NCBI RefSeq assembly: GCF_016903815.1
Contig: NZ_CP069973.1
Direction: 5' to 3' (one strand)
DNA: 64,000 nt
Source: Escherichia coli
Lineage (GTDB): Bacteria; Pseudomonadota; Gammaproteobacteria; Enterobacterales; Enterobacteriaceae
In this document: piece by piece, positions 37,156 to 43,481 of the stretch
How positions within the stretch are numbered: position 1 is the stretch's first letter
Layout: each line of letters opens with the position of its first letter
The notes under the pieces: generated by a model
The model's input: only the letters and a program-made list of their open reading frames with translations
Told to the model about the DNA's origin: nothing
Database searches by the model: none
Translations under genes and position numbers: made by a program

Positions 37156-39531
37156 TTAACGCATCCATTCACTCCCTTCAACACCATTGACCAGCAGCGT
37201 GCGTTTTTCTTCCACTGGTAATGACACTTTCAGTGCACTCCATGCAGGTCGATAATCCCCGCGCGCGTTGACTTTCAGGTTGATGGTCGCCCCATCGCAA
37301 ACCATTTCCCATTCCACCCAAAGCGCATTACCAGTTTGGTAGCCCCAGCTTTCGCCATCGTCTTCAAACAGCAGGCCGGACGTTGTGCCCACACCTTTCA
37401 GCGGGAACAGTTTCAGTTCGCGGGTATCGTCTTGTTCTGCGCTCACATAGGTGATGCGTTTGCTGAGCGGTAGACCAGCCCCGGCACGCACCATCAGCGG
37501 CAGTTTCTCCAGCGGTGCGTCGAGGGTGATCCACTGACCGCCACTGAACCATTCGCCGTTGTAGAAATCGTACCAGCCAGTTTCGTTATCTGGCAGCCAT
37601 ACACGGCGCTGGCGCTCGCCTTGCTCTACGACGCTGGCAACCAAAATATCGCGACCAAGCAGGAAGTCATCACACTCTTCAAAAGTCTGAACGTCGTGCT
37701 CGTGGTCAAGGAAAGTCGGACGTAGCATTGGTTCATCATCGGCGTATGCCTGCCACATCAGGGTATAAAAGTAGGGCAGCAGGCGATAGCGCAACTCAAT
37801 AGCGCTGCGGATCGCCGGAGTGACGCCCGGATACATCCACGGTTCGTTTACGGTATGGTCATCGTTCCACGAGTGAATCGTAAAGCGCGGATGCATCACG
37901 CCGTTTTGTACCCAGCGTACAAACAGTTCCGGGTCCGGCTTATCACCGGAGAAACCGCCGACGTCGTGACCGAGGTTATACAGCCCGGAGAGGCTCATCC
38001 CCAGACCCATGCGGGTGTTGTAGCGCAGAGTGTCCCAGCTAGTGCGGTTATCGCCGCTCCAGGTCTGCACATAGCGCTGCATTCCCGCGCAGCCGGAGCG
38101 GGAGATCAAGTACGGACGTTTTTCCGGAGCGAAACGTTGCTGGGCTTCCATCGAGGCTCGCATCATCAGCAGTGGCATCACCGGGCGAATATGTTTGATC
38201 GCGATCGTCTGACCAAAGCCGTGACAGCGTGCTTCACCGTCCCATACTTCGAATTCGTTGTTGTCGTTCCAGGTGGAGTCGATACCCATCTCCAGAAGCT
38301 GTGTGGTCACGCCTTCCTGCCACCACTGGATGGTCTGCGGATTAGTAAAGTCGAGGTTAGAACCTTCGTCATCCCAGAAGCTGGAACGTTCTGGTTCATC
38401 TGTTTCTGAATCACGGATGAACAGTCCTCTTTCTGCCACTTCGTTATAGCGTGGGTGATCCTGCAACAGGCACGGCTTGATATTGGCGGCCAAGTGCAAA
38501 CCAGCATTGTGAAATGCCTGGCTCATCACTTTCGGCTGCGGCACTTTGTCGTAATTCCAGTTGAACACATAGCGCTTGCCGTTAATTGAGGTATAACCGG
38601 AAGAGAGCTGGAACGAATCGCAGGGAATCGCATGTTCTTCACACAGGCGGATAAAGTTCATCAACTGATTTTGTGCGTCCGGCGCATCGGTGTAGTGCAT
38701 AGTTGAACCGCTGTAGCCCAGGCTCCATTTCGGTCCGAACAGGGTTTTGCCGGTCAGGCGTACGAAGGCTTTGGTGATATCAAGTACGCGTTCGCCGGTA
38801 AACAGGTAGTAGTCGATATCACCCGCTTCCGCCTGCCAGCGGCGATAGGCGGTGTGGTAGTTGTCGATCTCGTTGCCCAGATCCAGCCAGCAGCTGCTGA
38901 GGTTGTCATAAAACAGGCCGAAGCTAACGTCATCGCGGCGGGTGATGGTGAATGGAATGTGTTTGTACAACGGGTCAGTACTCACGGCGTTGTAGCCCAT
39001 CGCGTCGAGGTTACGCATCTCGTAACGTTTACCGTTGCGTTGCAGGTCGCCGGCTTTATCTCCGAGGCCATAAAAGCGTTCATCTTTACGACGGCTCTGA
39101 TAGTGCGCCACGCCGTCGCCGTGGGCATTCAGCAGATAAGCGCTGGTCGGGCGGTCATTCACCAACGGCAGCCATTCGCCTTCGTTGTTACGATAGTGCC
39201 ACTCCAGCCACAGCGGCTGGTGAACGGTGGCACGCAGTGACTCGGTGGCGATAACCACGGTGTCGTCGTGCTGGATCAATGTCCACGCGGGCAGGCTAAA
39301 GCCGCTGAGATCTTCGCGGCTGCGCCCTTCCCATGGCACATCCTGCGCCGGAGCAATGCTCCAGGTGCGATCCAGCGCCAGCTCGCCTTTGCGTTTTAAC
39401 AGCACGCGGAACAGATTTTCTTCCAGCACGTACAGGCACAGGATATGCTGGCCATCGACCAGCAGTTCAACGTGGTGGGCAGACTGTTTGTGCAGGGTCC
39501 AGTTTTTCAGCGTTTTCATGTTTACATCCAC
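37156..39531 (-). CDS. glycoside hydrolase family 31 enzyme (alpha-glycosidase), substrate unknown
   Basis: 791 aa; GH31 nucleophile region (GIDSTWNDNNEF, like WiDMNE) and acid/base region (GHDVGGF, like GADICGF); translationally coupled to the upstream MFS gene; not in K-12 between ybiT and ybiU as recalled. Confidence 0.75.
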   Translation of the reverse strand: MDVNMKTLKNWTLHKQSAHHVELLVDGQHILCLYVLEENLFRVLLKRKGELALDRTWSIAPAQDVPWEGRSREDLSGFSLPAWTLIQHDDTVVIATESLRATVHQPLWLEWHYRNNEGEWLPLVNDRPTSAYLLNAHGDGVAHYQSRRKDERFYGLGDKAGDLQRNGKRYEMRNLDAMGYNAVSTDPLYKHIPFTITRRDDVSFGLFYDNLSSCWLDLGNEIDNYHTAYRRWQAEAGDIDYYLFTGERVLDITKAFVRLTGKTLFGPKWSLGYSGSTMHYTDAPDAQNQLMNFIRLCEEHAIPCDSFQLSSGYTSINGKRYVFNWNYDKVPQPKVMSQAFHNAGLHLAANIKPCLLQDHPRYNEVAERGLFIRDSETDEPERSSFWDDEGSNLDFTNPQTIQWWQEGVTTQLLEMGIDSTWNDNNEFEVWDGEARCHGFGQTIAIKHIRPVMPLLMMRASMEAQQRFAPEKRPYLISRSGCAGMQRYVQTWSGDNRTSWDTLRYNTRMGLGMSLSGLYNLGHDVGGFSGDKPDPELFVRWVQNGVMHPRFTIHSWNDDHTVNEPWMYPGVTPAIRSAIELRYRLLPYFYTLMWQAYADDEPMLRPTFLDHEHDVQTFEECDDFLLGRDILVASVVEQGERQRRVWLPDNETGWYDFYNGEWFSGGQWITLDAPLEKLPLMVRAGAGLPLSKRITYVSAEQDDTRELKLFPLKGVGTTSGLLFEDDGESWGYQTGNALWVEWEMVCDGATINLKVNARGDYRPAWSALKVSLPVEEKRTLLVNGVEGSEWMR

Positions 39532-39533
39532 TC

Positions 39534-40841
39534 TCAGGCGCGTTTTGCGCGACGTTCAGCAATAAAGGTGACCAGGAAGAAAGCACCAATCAGGTCAAAG
39601 AAGCCCATGGCGATAAACAGGGGGTTAAAGCCGATTTTGTCAGCGGTAACCCCGATAATCAGGGAGAACAGGAAACTTGCGATCCACGCGGCAGAACCGC
39701 GCATGCCGTTAACAGTGGCCATCTGACCTTTGTCGAAGGATTCCACCACCAGTGCGCTCAGCATGCAGGAGATGATCTGGTGACCGAAGCCGCCGATGGA
39801 AATAAGGACGATGGCGATATACGGGTTATTGGTAAAGGCCATCACCGCCAGCGAAACCATCAGGAATGCGCCACTGACCGATGATGCGACAACGGAGTTC
39901 ACACGACTCAGCCCAAACAGGCGGGTGTAAAGTTTGGTCAGATAGCCGCTGGCAATACTGCCAAGATCAGCGGCGAGGAACGGCAACCAGGCGAATAATG
40001 CGATCTGCTTCAGGTCCATGCCATAGGTTTTGGACAGGTATAGCGGAACCCAGAAACTCATCACCGCCCACGCCGGTTCTGCCATAAAGGCCGGGATAGC
40101 GATACCGTAAAAGCGTTTATTTTTGCCTACGGTTTTCAGTGCGGTCAGAAAGGGTAACTTGACAGGGGGCGCTTCGTTATCCTGGCGGATAAAGTCCAGC
40201 TCGGCTTTGCTGAGGTTAGGATGCTTATCCGGGTTGTGATAGAACGCCCACCACAGCACCACCCACAGCATCGCCAGGATGCCAGTGAACATAAATGCAC
40301 CCTGCCAGCCGAATGAAGCGTGGGCAAAATAGATAATCGGTGGGGCCAGCATGGCACCGATGGAAAAACCGACGCCTGCCCAGCCTGCGGCGATCGGGCG
40401 TTCTGATTTTGGAAACCATTCACCGATGGTTTTGGCGTTTGCTGGGGTTGCCGCGGCTTCCGCACCGCCCATAAAGAAGCGCAACAGCGCCAGATGTACC
40501 CAGTTTCCCGCCCCCGCATGCATCAGACAGGCCAGCGCCCACAGTCCCGCGCAGATCATAAAGCCCAGTTTGAGGCCAATGACGTCAATCAGCCATCCAC
40601 ACAACGGTTGGAATAGGGTATAGGCGAGCTGGAAAGCACCTACAATCCAGGAATATTGTTCGGTGGTAATCCCCAGGTTGCTTTTCAGTTCGGGGGCGAG
40701 AATACCCAGCGAGTTACGCGTGATGTAGTTGACAGTAACACCGAGCAAAAAAAGGACCAGTATCCACCAACGCAGATTTTTGACGATATGGCGCGGTTTA
40801 CTGGCAGTCATATCGTTATTGATACCCTGACTCATATGCAC
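39534..40841 (-). CDS. MFS transporter, anion:cation symporter (ACS) family, ExuT/GudP-like
   Basis: 435 aa, about 12 TM helices; clear similarity to hexuronate transporter ExuT as recalled (…NYITRNSLGILAPEL…EQYSWIVGAF…GFGHQ…); annotated start is GTG at 40841 with an ATG two codons downstream. Confidence 0.75.
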   Translation of the reverse strand: MHMSQGINNDMTASKPRHIVKNLRWWILVLFLLGVTVNYITRNSLGILAPELKSNLGITTEQYSWIVGAFQLAYTLFQPLCGWLIDVIGLKLGFMICAGLWALACLMHAGAGNWVHLALLRFFMGGAEAAATPANAKTIGEWFPKSERPIAAGWAGVGFSIGAMLAPPIIYFAHASFGWQGAFMFTGILAMLWVVLWWAFYHNPDKHPNLSKAELDFIRQDNEAPPVKLPFLTALKTVGKNKRFYGIAIPAFMAEPAWAVMSFWVPLYLSKTYGMDLKQIALFAWLPFLAADLGSIASGYLTKLYTRLFGLSRVNSVVASSVSGAFLMVSLAVMAFTNNPYIAIVLISIGGFGHQIISCMLSALVVESFDKGQMATVNGMRGSAAWIASFLFSLIIGVTADKIGFNPLFIAMGFFDLIGAFFLVTFIAERRAKRA

Positions 40842-40863
40842 TCCACAGAATGGTATAGGGTTT

Positions 40864-40894
40864 GTGTGGCAACGTCAGAATGGAGTTGTCACAC
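40864..40894. promoter_or_regulatory. imperfect inverted repeat gtgtgGcaac-N11-gttgtCacac in the divergent MFS/LacI promoter region (candidate operator)
   Basis: 9 of 10 bp arm complementarity read in sequence, 23 bp upstream of the MFS start. Confidence 0.3.
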
Positions 40895-41129
40895 CACTTT
40901 TAACTTTTTGATAAATAAAGTCTTTATTGTTCGTTTTTCCATTATTTTTGTATGGAAGTTGTTCTACCAATTCACAGTAAGAGACCCTAAAAGCGAAAGA
41001 AAGCGGGTTTTGTGCACGTTTTTCCATGAGTGACTGATATACATTACTGAAATGGATTTAATGCCAGACAGAATGGGCTTTTTTGCTCATGAAAATTCTG
41101 TCATTTCCGAATTAGAGGCAGATCACAAA

Positions 41130-42233
41130 ATGGACAAGAAGCTGAAAATCGCCGATATCGCCGCACGTACCGGGCTATCGCCGAGTACGGTTTCGCGGGT
41201 GCTGGCTGGCAAAGCGAATACCAGTGCACGCGCTCGCGAACAGGTGCTGGCCTGCGCGCGTGAGTTGGGCGTGATGGATGGCATGGCAGCAGGTCGTATG
41301 TTGCTGAACAACCTGATTATTTTCGCGCCGCAACGCGCTTTTGACCAACGATCTGATATCTTTTATTACCGTGTGATCCAGAGCATCAGCAAAGCGTTAT
41401 CGCCGCATGAAGTGCGGCTGCGTTACTGCGCGCTGGAGGAGTTTGACAGCGATCCCGCGCTATTTCTCTCGCGGATGAATGAAGCAGATACGCAGGCGGC
41501 GATCCTGCTGGGGATTGACGATCCGCACATCCATGATCTGGCCGCCGATCTCGCTAAGCCTTGTGTGCTGATCAACTGCCGTGATGAACGAATGCGCCTC
41601 CCGGCGATTGCGCCGGACCATCGGTTAATTGGCGCGTTCGCCGCCCGCTATCTGTTTGAAATGGGTCACCGGGAGGTGATGAATGTGATGTGCCTGCGCC
41701 GCTACACTATGGAGCAGCGGTTTGCAGGGATTAAAGAATCATGGCGTCAGCATAATCTGGCCTTTCACCATGACCGTCATTTGCTGAATATCAGCAGTTT
41801 TAGCGCTAAAGAAGCGGAAGAAAAGGTCGGAGCGTGGCTGGATGCCGCCAATGGCAAGACGTTGCCGACGGCGTTTCTGGTCGGCGGGGATTTTATGGCG
41901 GCGGGAACGGTAAATGCGCTACATCGTCGTGGTCTGCGCGTACCACAGGATGTCTCGGTGATGAGTATCGACGGCTTTAACCTTGCGGCAATCGAGGATG
42001 TTCCCCTGACGGCTGTGCATGTGCCACGCGATGAGCTAGGCAATGAAGCGGTGCAAATGTTGCAACAGCGGCTGATTCGCCCGGATGCTCCGGTGGGCTC
42101 GCTGCTGCTGCACGGACGATTGGCGGTGCGGGAGTCAGTGCGGCGGGTTCGCCCAGGAAAAGGGAACACCGCCGTGGAACGGGAAGGGCTGTACGACACT
42201 CAGCTGTCGATTCCCAACGCTCGCTTACCGTGA
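41130..42233 (+). CDS. LacI/GalR-family transcriptional regulator
   Basis: ORF 41052..42233; start placed at MDKKLKIADIAARTGLSPSTVSRVLAG (canonical LacI HTH), 367 aa; periplasmic-binding-protein-like effector domain; 3' end overlaps the ybiU 3' end. Confidence 0.8.
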   Translation: MDKKLKIADIAARTGLSPSTVSRVLAGKANTSARAREQVLACARELGVMDGMAAGRMLLNNLIIFAPQRAFDQRSDIFYYRVIQSISKALSPHEVRLRYCALEEFDSDPALFLSRMNEADTQAAILLGIDDPHIHDLAADLAKPCVLINCRDERMRLPAIAPDHRLIGAFAARYLFEMGHREVMNVMCLRRYTMEQRFAGIKESWRQHNLAFHHDRHLLNISSFSAKEAEEKVGAWLDAANGKTLPTAFLVGGDFMAAGTVNALHRRGLRVPQDVSVMSIDGFNLAAIEDVPLTAVHVPRDELGNEAVQMLQQRLIRPDAPVGSLLLHGRLAVRESVRRVRPGKGNTAVEREGLYDTQLSIPNARLP

Positions 42234-43465
42234 ATGTTGAGGTCGGCAAGCGTAAAGCGTCCTTCCCAGTTTGTTTCATAGTCCTCGCGCGGGAAGTCGC
42301 CCGGCGATGCGCCTTTTTCCAGTGCGGCCTTCACCTTGTGCGCGTAGGCAAGATTTTTCTCGCACATCGGTGCCGCAGGAATGTACATCACGTTGCCCCA
42401 GCCCTGTTGATTTTCAACGGGGGCAACGGAATGGATGACGTCGCAGTGCCACCAGACGGAGTCTCCGGCTTCGAGTTTTGGAATGCTGGTTAACGCCTCA
42501 ATCAACAGTGGATGCCATTGCTCTGATACCGGCAATACTCTTCCGGGCGCTACGCCGCACAGTTCATCCTCCGGCACATCATCAAGCAGCGGACGTAACA
42601 GTACGTACGCCATGGCTTCAGGAATGGGCACGACGTGCAGCAGCCCCTGACCAGGCAGCATATCAGAGAGCGCTGTCCAGCCCTGGAATGTCCGAAACAC
42701 GGAACATTTGGTGGTGTTGTCCACCGTGTACTCTTCAACTTCCGTACGATGTGCCGCATGCCAGGGATCGTATTTCGCCAGATTGCCATTAAAGACGTTG
42801 GCGAAAACGTGCTGATACGCTGGAAGCAGCCAGCGTTCCAGCGCCCCGGAGTCGGTATGCGCTCCAAGACCTTTGGAGGTCGTTCCGGGCGGACGGCGGC
42901 GGATACGGTCAGGGTAGATGACGCTCACATCCGGGTTAAACCATTGCTTTCCATCACTTTCAAATGTCCACAGACGATTGAGAAACGACTGCACATTCGC
43001 CATTTCTTCACTCTGGCGGGCCTGCATTTGCGCCTGCGACCAGTAGATGGGGTAAATCTCGGGACGTGAAGCGCTGAGCGTCCCGAAGAAATTATCGCCG
43101 GGGCCTTTGTAGACCTCGTCAAAGCGGTTGCGGTCCAGATAGTCCAGCATCGACTGATCCCAGCCTAGCGCTTGTTCGCGGGGGAAATGGCCTTTTATCA
43201 CCGCACAACCGCGACGTTTAATCTGTTCGCGCTGCTCTGCAGTAACATGACCTGCTTTGATATCGGCATAAGACAGCACCGGCCAGACGGCATCGCCCTG
43301 TGCTTTGAGTGCGTTGATTTCAGCCACTCGCGTGGCAATGTCATCGCTTAGCTGATTAAAGATCTGCTGGACGTCGCCAAGCTGCGCCCGCAGCGCGTGC
43401 TTCATCTGACGGATAGCTGCTTTGTGATCGGCAGGCAATGTGTCGCTGGTAAAAGTAGAAGCCAT
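42200..43465 (-). CDS. ybiU: DUF1479-family protein YbiU
   Basis: ORF 42200..43471; start placed at the ATG giving MASTFTSDTLPADHK (421 aa). Confidence 0.85.
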   Translation of the reverse strand: MASTFTSDTLPADHKAAIRQMKHALRAQLGDVQQIFNQLSDDIATRVAEINALKAQGDAVWPVLSYADIKAGHVTAEQREQIKRRGCAVIKGHFPREQALGWDQSMLDYLDRNRFDEVYKGPGDNFFGTLSASRPEIYPIYWSQAQMQARQSEEMANVQSFLNRLWTFESDGKQWFNPDVSVIYPDRIRRRPPGTTSKGLGAHTDSGALERWLLPAYQHVFANVFNGNLAKYDPWHAAHRTEVEEYTVDNTTKCSVFRTFQGWTALSDMLPGQGLLHVVPIPEAMAYVLLRPLLDDVPEDELCGVAPGRVLPVSEQWHPLLIEALTSIPKLEAGDSVWWHCDVIHSVAPVENQQGWGNVMYIPAAPMCEKNLAYAHKVKAALEKGASPGDFPREDYETNWEGRFTLADLNIHGKRALGIDS

Positions 43466-43481
43466 AACCACCTCGCATTAA

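What the first reader, a model, noticed from the sequence alone, without database searches (positions are those of the whole stretch)
40842..41129. Divergent promoter region of the accessory module carries an operator-like dyad
gtgtgGcaac-N11-gttgtCacac (40864..40894) lies between the LacI-type regulator and the MFS-GH31 operon, the expected place for autoregulation and operon control. It does not match a CRP site well. It could define the regulator's specificity.
Basis: seen in the sequence. Interest (0 to 1): 0.3.

Follow-up and report, generated by a model that had tools for sequence, protein, structure and literature searches.

The report
Half of an ExuR repressor site
The reported dyad is real but no better than chance as a dyad: its right arm sits inside a conserved binding site of the type used by the hexuronate repressor ExuR, its left arm is a poorly conserved neighbour, and the LacI-type regulator's own likely operators lie about 130 and 210 bp away.

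Summary
GTGTGGCAAC-N11-GTTGTCACAC is at 40864-40894, with 9 of 10 positions complementary. It lies between an MFS-GH31 operon and a LacI-family gene in an E. coli accessory module found in 576 of 5426 complete genomes. A dyad this good appears in 20% of shuffled copies of the spacer, so symmetry alone means little.

In 79 orthologous spacers only the right arm is conserved. It lies inside GGAGTTGTCACACCACTTT (40882-40900), which has the TKGT-N3-ACMA core of ExuR (GntR/FadR) operators. A matrix built only from canonical hexuronate-gene ExuR sites ranks this box first (18.2 bits) in the 64-kb window. A second box, 40955-40973, ranks second (14.25 bits).

A published regulon table already lists ExuR sites at the same two positions for the orthologous module in Enterobacter 638 and Citrobacter koseri, and ExuR sites for it in Klebsiella, Pectobacterium and Serratia.

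The left arm is the variable spot within Escherichia. It scores 1.2 bits as a box. It is at most a weak extra half-site.

The regulator is RegPrecise "LfaR". Its likely operators are two TG-N10-CA palindromes at 41089-41104 and 41012-41027. They keep fixed distances from its start codon in all 83 orthologues examined.

Verdict: an operator is present, but for a different regulator and in a different register. This is ordinary, and largely predicted already.

The parts
40864..40873 (.). Only the inner GGCAAC is kept within the Escherichia/Kluyvera/Pseudocitrobacter clade. At best it is a weak extra ExuR-type half-site, part of a degenerate box at 40858-40876.
   Evidence: As a full box it scores 1.2 bits in the window and -6.6 to -10.9 bits in the relatives. 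Position 40867 takes all four bases across the clade while its partner A40891 never changes.
40885..40894 (.). It equals the left half-site, the centre and the first two bases of the right half-site of ExuR-type box A.
40882..40900 (.). ExuR-type box A, GGAGTTGTCACACCACTTT (core TTGT-CAC-ACCA, centre 40891), 56 bp upstream of the MFS ATG.
   Evidence: It is the top hit (18.2 bits) of the canonical-site ExuR matrix in the 64-kb window. It matches the consensus search. It reaches at least 8 bits in 40 of 79 orthologous spacers. Published ExuR sites sit at this position in the Enterobacter 638 and C. koseri orthologues.
40955..40973 (.). ExuR-type box D, GAAGTTGTTCTACCAATTC (core TTGT-TCT-ACCA, centre 40964). 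It lies 166 bp upstream of the regulator's ATG and 73 bp from box A.
   Evidence: Second-best matrix hit, 14.25 bits. Present in 65 of 79 spacers. The box centre is 166-167 bp upstream of the regulator's ATG in C. koseri, Serratia and Pectobacterium. Published as an ExuR site for orthologues.
40974..40979 (-). Inferred -10 hexamer TACTGT of the MFS-GH31 promoter (pattern TAnnnT). It implies a transcription start near 40967, so box D would cover about -6 to +13.
   Evidence: T, A and T at these positions are at least 90% conserved in 79 spacers, and the pattern is also seen in Serratia and Pectobacterium. This is inference only; no transcription start data exist.
40901..40913 (-). Match to the IHF consensus WATCAAnnnnTTR (TATCAAAAAGTTA on the minus strand), lying between boxes A and D.
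   Evidence: Seen in the sequence. The core TTTGAT is conserved. The consensus is from my own knowledge, and the match is not tested further.
41012..41027 (.). Palindrome F, GTGCACGTTTTTCCAT (family pattern RTGCAA-N4-TTYTCAT). Candidate operator of the LacI-family regulator; it also resembles a CRP site (TGTGC-N6-TTCCA).
   Evidence: TG and CA are invariant in 83 of 83 orthologues. The centre is 110-111 bp upstream of the regulator's ATG in 82 of 83.
41089..41104 (.). Palindrome G, ATGAAAATTCTGTCAT (family pattern RTGAAAA-NN-TTTTCAT). Candidate autoregulatory operator of the LacI-family regulator.
   Evidence: The centre is exactly 33 bp upstream of the ATG in 83 of 83 orthologues, including Yersinia, Serratia and Pectobacterium.
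41130..42233 (+). LacI-family regulator gene, the orthologue of RegPrecise LfaR. The conserved start is MDKKLKI.
39534..40835 (-). MFS transporter of the anion:cation symporter type (D-galactonate transporter subfamily).
37156..39519 (-). GH31 glycoside hydrolase, alpha-glucosidase-like.

Best explanation
The control region carries two operators of the ExuR type. ExuR is the GntR/FadR-family repressor of hexuronate catabolism and is encoded elsewhere in the chromosome. Box D (40955-40973) lies directly downstream of the conserved -10-like element of the MFS-GH31 promoter. Box A (40882-40900) lies 73 bp further downstream, in the leader.

Any neighbouring sequence that resembles its other half therefore makes a longer-range dyad with it. 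The left arm is such a neighbour. It reads TTGT-GTG-GCAA, with the invariant A of ACMA replaced by G. It is either a decayed second box or a weak extra half-site, and it is specific to the Escherichia/Kluyvera/Pseudocitrobacter lineage.

Inferred mechanism: without hexuronates, ExuR dimers occupy D and A and block transcription of the operon. Glucuronate or galacturonate relieves this. The module's own LacI-family regulator (LfaR) acts through the two TG-N10-CA palindromes F and G near its own gene.

Shown: sequence matches, matrix ranks, conservation, and the published predictions for orthologues. Inferred: ExuR occupancy, the promoter position, and the assignment of F and G to LfaR.
For: (a) ExuR sites have TKGT/ACMA boxes 3 nt apart (PMC4494728). 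Box A is TTGT-CAC-ACCA and box D is TTGT-TCT-ACCA.

(b) The K-12 sites at exuT (AAAGTTGTATGACAAGTTA), uxaCA (AAAGTTATCACACCAATTT) and exuR (AAAGTGGTATAACAAATAT) were found independently in K-12 DNA. They agree with the published table.

(c) A matrix was built from 21 canonical sites, with all module sites left out. It ranks box A first (18.2 bits) and box D second (14.25 bits) among about 64,000 positions. The next hit scores 11.8, and the training sites score 10.7-25.2.

(d) The consensus search finds only these two sites, against 0.17 expected.

(e) The published table lists ExuR sites for Ent638_1313-1312/1314, CKO_02295/02296-97, KPN_00852-54, ECA1966-68 and Spro_3598-3600. The single-gene members of these sets (Ent638_1314, CKO_02295, KPN_00854, ECA1966, Spro_3600) are listed as LfaR, the orthologue of this regulator. 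C. koseri DNA confirms the same gene order and the listed box. The Enterobacter box D sequence occurs verbatim in six of my orthologous loci.

(f) Box D is present in 65 of 79 spacers and box A in 40 of 79.

(g) Within Escherichia, boxes A, D, F and G are invariant. The outer left arm carries substitutions and a 2-bp deletion.

(h) Tandem strong-plus-weak ExuR boxes 22 bp apart also occur upstream of uxaB in K-12. This is close to the 23-24 bp between the degenerate box and box A.
Against: No binding or expression data exist for this module in any species. The published ExuR sites for orthologues are themselves computational predictions.

Box A falls below 8 bits in 39 of 79 spacers. In the Enterobacter-type spacers (for example TCAGGTGTCACACGGATTT) it is below or only just above that threshold, so its importance may vary between lineages.

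The inner left arm GGCAAC is invariant within Escherichia and nearly so in Kluyvera and Pseudocitrobacter. This leaves room for a real, if minor, role that I cannot specify.

The transcription start is inferred from a conserved TAnnnT only. The generic sigma-70 scan instead proposes TTGGTA-18-AATAAT (40970..40941). Box D overlaps the promoter under either reading.
Confidence: 0.8

Rival explanations
1. The 31-bp dyad is the operator of the module's LacI-family regulator, with each arm bound by one subunit, and it controls the operon and the regulator's own gene.
For: The position is suitable: the dyad centre is 44 bp upstream of the MFS ATG, inside the 30-140 bp range typical of LacI-family sites. 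Arm complementarity is 9/10. The inner CAAC...GTTG is kept in ten close relatives.
Against: LacI-family motifs are contiguous palindromes of 16-22 nt, nearly always with a central CG. This dyad is 31 bp with an 11-nt unconserved gap and no central CG.

The left arm is absent in most orthologues and variable within Escherichia.

The right arm is fully explained by an ExuR box.

Palindromes F and G have the family's TGnAA...TTnCA layout and keep fixed distances from the regulator's gene in 83 of 83 orthologues.

The dyad is not statistically unusual.
Confidence: 0.04
2. Composite ExuR operator. The left arm is a functional third half-site, or a weak second box 24 bp from box A. It recruits a further ExuR dimer or subunit cooperatively, so the dyad reflects a real tandem arrangement.
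For: GntR-family palindromic sites are often accompanied by weaker adjacent half-sites (PMC4494728).

The same three-arm layout (ACAACT-N8-AGTTGT-N3-ACAAGT) occurs at box D in about 50 other species. There the extra arm belongs to a third box scoring 8-17 bits.

uxaB in K-12 has boxes 22 bp apart.

The inner GGCAAC is conserved in the clade.
Against: The putative second box scores 1.2 bits in the window and is negative in all relatives. Its half-site scores -2.2 to +1.7 bits, roughly the top few per cent of background.

The invariant A of ACMA is replaced by G.

The outer part varies freely without compensation.
Confidence: 0.13
3. RNA hairpin. The dyad folds in the 5' leader of the MFS-GH31 mRNA and affects stability, translation or termination.
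For: If transcription starts near 40967 or 40934, both arms are transcribed. The isolated 43-nt segment folds into the hairpin at -10.8 kcal/mol. In some other clades a short inverted repeat of different sequence abuts box A.
Against: 23 of 200 shuffles fold at least as well as the hairpin (z -1.34).

In the 142-nt leader the minimum-energy fold does not use it, and the z-score is -0.67.

On the mRNA strand the imperfect position is a C-A mismatch rather than a wobble pair.

Left-arm changes are not compensated.

There is no T-run or terminator-like site and no Rfam match.

The Enterobacter-type spacers lack the left arm entirely.
Confidence: 0.03

Closest known systems
ExuR operators of the E. 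coli exu regulon (exuT, uxaCA, uxaB, exuR); GntR family, FadR subfamily
   Same: The 17-19-bp A/T-flanked palindrome has the same TKGT-N3-ACMA core. Box A differs from the uxaCA operator AAAGTTATCACACCAATTT at 4 of 19 positions. The Enterobacter-clade version of box D has arms identical to the exuT operator. Scores fall within the range of canonical sites. Two boxes per control region, as in the uxaC-exuT spacer.
   Different: The boxes lie in an accessory module (ACS-type MFS, GH31, LacI-family regulator) that K-12 lacks, and that carries its own second regulator. ExuR binding has not been tested here. The role of the module in hexuronate metabolism is unknown.
RegPrecise-derived ExuR sites listed for the orthologous module (Ent638_1312-1314, CKO_02295-02297, KPN_00852-00854, ECA1966-1968, Spro_3598-3600; table S1 of PMC4494728)
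   Same: Same genes and same divergent layout. For Enterobacter 638 and C. koseri the listed boxes sit at the same two positions as here, boxes D and A.
   Different: Those are other species. The E. coli accessory copy is not in the part of the table I read. In the E. coli lineage the box flanking D has decayed, and the weak extra arm sits beside box A instead.
LacI/GalR-family operators, and the RegPrecise LfaR regulog (regulog 4996)
   Same: The regulator is the LfaR orthologue. Palindromes G and F have the family's 16-bp even layout, with TG and CA 10 bp apart as in TGnAAnCGnTTnCA. [quoted passage not shown] Autoregulation is typical of local LacI-family factors.
   Different: G and F lack the central CG (AT-rich centre), a minority condition: 78 of 1251 even palindromes in PMC4052901. 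I could not retrieve the RegPrecise LfaR motif to confirm that it equals G and F.
CytR operators (half-sites with flexible spacing; recalled from memory, not verified here)
   Same: Inverted GCAAC/GTTG-like half-sites separated by about 10-13 bp, and a regulator whose second-best NCBIfam hit is CytR.
   Different: The score is far below the CytR cut-off (95 against 436 bits). No flanking CRP pair is present. The left arm is not conserved. The right arm is explained by ExuR.

Membership tests
   The dyad spans 31 bp with an 11-nt unconserved gap. Family description in PMC4052901.
   The centre of the dyad is A40879 within GTCAGAATGGA.
   The left arm is found at 7-9/10 only in about ten close relatives, and it is variable within Escherichia.
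   The dyad centre 40879 is 44 bp from the MFS ATG at 40835.
   Needs EMSA or footprinting.
ExuR (GntR/FadR-subfamily) operator | A/T-flanked palindrome with a TKGT and an ACMA box separated by 3 nt | tested here: met
   Box A is TTGT-CAC-ACCA and box D is TTGT-TCT-ACCA. Definition in PMC4494728.
ExuR (GntR/FadR-subfamily) operator | Score within the range of canonical exu-regulon sites and above genomic background | tested here: met
   18.2 and 14.25 bits against a training range of 10.7-25.2. These are ranks 1 and 2 in 64 kb; the 99.99th percentile of background is 9.6.
ExuR (GntR/FadR-subfamily) operator | Conserved at orthologous loci | tested here: met
   Box D in 65 of 79 spacers and box A in 40 of 79, with boxes also in Serratia, Pectobacterium and Yersinia. 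Published for orthologues.
ExuR (GntR/FadR-subfamily) operator | Position compatible with repression (overlapping or downstream of the promoter) | tested here: inconclusive
   Box D abuts a conserved TAnnnT and overlaps the only sigma-70-like hit. No transcription start data.
ExuR (GntR/FadR-subfamily) operator | ExuR binding and induction by hexuronates | not testable with these tools
   No experimental data found for this module.
CRP site | TGTGA-N6-TCACA | tested here: not met
In the dyad, TGTGG and TCACA are 19 bp apart.
Structured RNA leader or intrinsic terminator | Stability beyond shuffles, covariation, a T-run or a known family | tested here: not met
   z-scores of -1.34 and -0.67. 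No terminator-like site. No Rfam match below E = 0.08. Left-arm changes are uncompensated.

The most novel reading that the evidence does not exclude
The module is a two-key switch: the host's ExuR and the module's own LfaR must both be relieved. This would imply that the ACS-type transporter and the alpha-glucosidase-like GH31 import and split an as yet unknown alpha-glycoside that releases a hexuronate. In the E. coli/Kluyvera lineage the auxiliary ExuR half-site would have moved from beside box D to beside box A, creating the dyad and rewiring cooperative ExuR binding to the leader.
Probability: 0.2. Interest if true: 0.45.

Novelty: new member of a known kind. Interest (0 to 1): 0.15.

Why it matters
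The finding corrects an easy mis-assignment. A dyad next to a LacI-type gene is not necessarily that regulator's operator. Here it would have sent an EMSA experiment to the wrong protein and the wrong boundaries.

It also ties an E. coli accessory sugar module, present in about 11% of complete genomes, to the core hexuronate regulon. That gives a concrete hint about its unknown substrate, which may contain or yield a uronate. It also gives defined targets for testing dual repression by ExuR and LfaR.

The regulatory logic itself is conventional and was already predicted in silico for orthologues, so the general interest is low.

Tried and rejected
(1) CRP site at the dyad: the spacing is wrong.

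(2) CytR-like flexible half-sites: this rests on memory only. The left arm is not conserved and the regulator is not CytR.

(3) Block A as a -35 (GTGACA) or -10 (TGTGAC/TATAAC) element on the minus strand. The spacing to candidate partner hexamers is inconsistent between clades, 17-19 against 29-31 bp. I dropped this in favour of the ExuR box.

(4) A 20-bp palindrome ACAACT-N8-AGTTGT as an operator in its own right. It resolves into the facing half-sites of two neighbouring ExuR boxes.

(5) RNA hairpin or riboswitch.

(6) Single-sequence statistics for palindrome G. ATGAAANNNNTTTCAT with up to 2 mismatches gives 5 hits against 4 expected in the window. Support for G and F therefore rests on conservation only.

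(7) Literature. The 2011 J Bacteriol hexuronate-regulon paper is not held. A search for the exuT operator string found nothing. A search for 'LfaR' returned only unrelated uses among the ten papers listed.

(8) The generic sigma-70 scan gives one hit, no more than in shuffles.

Full report
**Setting.** The window is E. coli. The three genes around the finding form an accessory module inserted between ybiT and ybiU:
- a GH31 hydrolase, 37156-39519, minus strand;
- an MFS transporter of the anion:cation symporter type, 39534-40835, minus strand;
- a LacI-family regulator, 41130-42233, plus strand.

The whole module is present in 576 of 5426 complete E. coli genomes. An alignment of 24 orthologues places the regulator's start at MDKKLKI (41130). 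The annotation pipeline's start at 41073 is not supported by this alignment. The divergent spacer is therefore 40836-41129, 294 bp.

- 20% of 2000 dinucleotide-preserving shuffles of the spacer contain a dyad at least this good with a gap of 0-20;
- the 64-kb window holds 124 such dyads.

**Related loci.** A scan of one genome per species returned 80 loci from Enterobacteriaceae. All loci that extend far enough show the same GH31-MFS / regulator layout, with spacers of 255-312 bp. In the alignment of 79 spacers the right arm falls in a conserved block, AGTTGTCACACC. The left-arm columns are poorly conserved.

In the Enterobacter, Leclercia and Citrobacter group the best complement instead lies 56-80 bp away on the other side.

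Within Escherichia, four alleles differ mainly in the outer left arm: GTGTGG, GTGCGG, or GGGCGG with a 2-bp deletion. The right arm and the other blocks are identical.

**What the right arm is.** The conserved block and a second block 73 bp away are direct repeats (family D4). Both read TTGT-N3-ACCA. PMC4494728 describes FadR-subfamily GntR sites as A/T-rich palindromes with TKGT and ACMA boxes, separated by 3 nt for ExuR and 2 nt for UxuR.

In K-12 DNA I found three such sites:
- AAAGTTGTATGACAAGTTA before exuT;
- AAAGTTATCACACCAATTT before uxaC;
- AAAGTGGTATAACAAATAT before exuR.

The same three are listed as ExuR sites in the paper's supplementary table.

I built a symmetric matrix from 21 distinct canonical sites of that table, leaving out every site attached to this module. 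Scored over the whole window, the best position is 40882-40900, GGAGTTGTCACACCACTTT (18.2 bits). The second is 40955-40973, GAAGTTGTTCTACCAATTC (14.25 bits). The third, elsewhere, scores 11.8, and the training sites score 10.7-25.2.

A plain consensus search (AAGTTGTNNNACAACTT, up to 2 mismatches) finds exactly these two places, against 0.17 expected. I chose that consensus after noticing the resemblance. The matrix result is the independent test.

**This is already in the literature, for orthologues.** The same table lists ExuR sites for:
- Ent638_1313-1312 and Ent638_1314 (GAAGTTGTGTGACAAGTTC and TAATCTGTGTGACAACCGA);
- CKO_02295 and CKO_02296-02297;
- KPN_00852-00854;
- ECA1966-1968;
- Spro_3598-3600.

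The supplement of PMC4052901 names CKO_02295, Ent638_1314, KPN_00854, ECA1966, Spro_3600 and y3231 as 'LfaR'. LfaR is a LacI-family regulog with an unknown effector: 6 genomes, 23 sites. Their sequences are plainly orthologues of the regulator here.

I checked the link on DNA. A C. koseri contig carries GH31-MFS / regulator between ybiT-like and ybiU-like genes. Its spacer contains TAAGTTGTGTGACAAGTTC exactly, and a near-identical copy of the second listed site. The Enterobacter box sequence occurs verbatim in six of my loci.

At a threshold of 8 bits, box D is present in 65 of 79 spacers and box A in 40 of 79. A third box next to D is present in about 25.

**Why a dyad appears.** The ExuR motif is a palindrome. 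The right half of one box and the left half of the next are therefore reverse complements of each other.

In most genera a box, or a half-box, sits 23 bp from D, which gives ACAACT-N8-AGTTGT.

As a full box it reads GGGTTTGTGTGGCAACGTC and scores 1.2 bits in the window. In the relatives the corresponding sequence scores -6.6 to -10.9 bits. As a half-site it scores -2.2 to +1.7 bits. The left arm is thus a degenerate box or a weak auxiliary half-site.

Such weaker accessory half-sites are described for GntR-family sites. K-12 uxaB also has a strong and a weak box 22 bp apart. So a minor cooperative role is possible but unproven.

**Where the LacI-type regulator probably binds.** The most conserved elements of the spacer are two 16-bp palindromes:
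- G: ATGAAAATTCTGTCAT at 41089-41104; family pattern RTGAAAA-NN-TTTTCAT.
- F: GTGCACGTTTTTCCAT at 41012-41027; family pattern RTGCAA-N4-TTYTCAT.

I examined 83 orthologous spacers, including Yersinia pestis, Pectobacterium and Serratia fetched by exact protein look-up. The centre of G is 33 bp upstream of the regulator's ATG in all 83. The centre of F is 110-111 bp upstream in 82. TG and CA, 10 bp apart, are invariant in both.

This is the layout of LacI-family operators (TGnAA...TTnCA) without the central CG. PMC4052901 reports that minority state for 78 of 1251 even palindromes, and it reports autoregulation for more than three quarters of local regulators. The 23 LfaR sites in 6 genomes would fit two sites counted for each of two divergent transcription units. 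That is my reading; I could not retrieve the motif.

Single-sequence statistics do not support G. The case for G and F is conservation.

**How it most likely works.** A minus-strand TAnnnT (TACTGT, 40979-40974) directly upstream of box D is at least 90% conserved, also in Serratia and Pectobacterium. If it is the -10 element, transcription starts near 40967. Box D then covers about -6 to +13, box A about +68 to +86, and the left arm +95 to +104. The only sigma-70-like hit of the generic scan (TTGGTA-18-AATAAT, 40970..40941) also overlaps box D.

I therefore infer the following:
- ExuR at D blocks initiation.
- Box A, seven helical turns away with an IHF-consensus match between them (40901-40913), assists by roadblock or looping.
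- LfaR adds substrate-specific control from F and G.

None of this has been tested experimentally.

**Rivals.**
- The dyad as a LacI-type operator fails the family's architecture and the conservation test.
- An RNA hairpin is not supported. The isolated hairpin folds at -10.8 kcal/mol, and 23 of 200 shuffles fold as well. The full leader does not use it. Left-arm changes are uncompensated. There is no terminator and no Rfam match.
- A functional composite ExuR site that includes the left arm remains possible at low probability.

**Verdict.** The feature is a new instance, in the E. coli accessory copy, of an ExuR site already predicted for the lfaR module in other species. Interest is low. The useful by-products are correct boundaries for binding experiments and a link between this unstudied GH31/MFS module and hexuronate metabolism.

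Noticed in passing
window 41073-41129 (regulator start): RefSeq annotation of strain 7/2 starts the LacI-family gene at 41073, 19 codons upstream. The 24-orthologue alignment and another E. coli record (strain B1) point to the start at 41130. The longer call would place palindrome G inside the coding sequence.
   Followed up: partly
window 41113-41132: GGCAGATCACAAAATGG, from the ribosome-binding region to the start codon, is almost invariant at the DNA level in all 83 orthologues, including a GATC. In many species an in-frame ATGGAG six codons upstream gives M-E-x-D-H-K-M. The reason for this much conservation is unexplained.
   Followed up: no
window 41011-41026: Palindrome F also reads as a CRP-like site: TGTGC-N6-TTCCA here, and TGTGC-N6-TCTCA in most species (8 of 10 core matches). 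About 24 of 83 species have TATGC instead. Whether CRP, LfaR or both use it is open.
   Followed up: partly
window 40901-40913, minus strand: TATCAAAAAGTTA fits the IHF consensus WATCAAnnnnTTR and lies between the two ExuR-type boxes. Similar matches occur in Kluyvera, Salmonella diarizonae and Cedecea.
   Followed up: no
window 40845-40853, 40875-40883, 41068-41076, 41125-41133: Four copies of ACAGAATGG-like 9-mers lie in the spacer, and GACAGAAT / ATTCTGTC forms an 8-bp inverted pair (41067-41074 and 41095-41102) overlapping palindrome G. These are specific to E. coli and not conserved elsewhere.
   Followed up: no
window 37156-40835: The transporter belongs to the anion:cation symporter (D-galactonate transporter) group, and the region carries ExuR-type boxes. 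Yet the GH31 enzyme's nearest solved relatives are alpha-glucosidase II and bacterial GH31 alpha-glycosidases. The substrate may be an acidic, uronate-containing or uronate-yielding alpha-glycoside. No characterised example was found.
   Followed up: partly
window 42200-42233: The 3' ends of the regulator gene (ends 42233, plus strand) and ybiU (42200-43471, minus strand) overlap convergently by 34 bp. The module sits at the same ybiT/ybiU position in C. koseri (L086).
   Followed up: no
L071-L074, L077-L079 (Cedecea, Siccibacter, Atlantibacter, Dryocola): In these distant genera the promoter-distal ExuR box is a strong TAATTGGTATAACAAC-type site (15-19 bits) close to the MFS start, with a different sequence from box A. 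The number of boxes is kept but their sequence and exact position turn over.
   Followed up: partly
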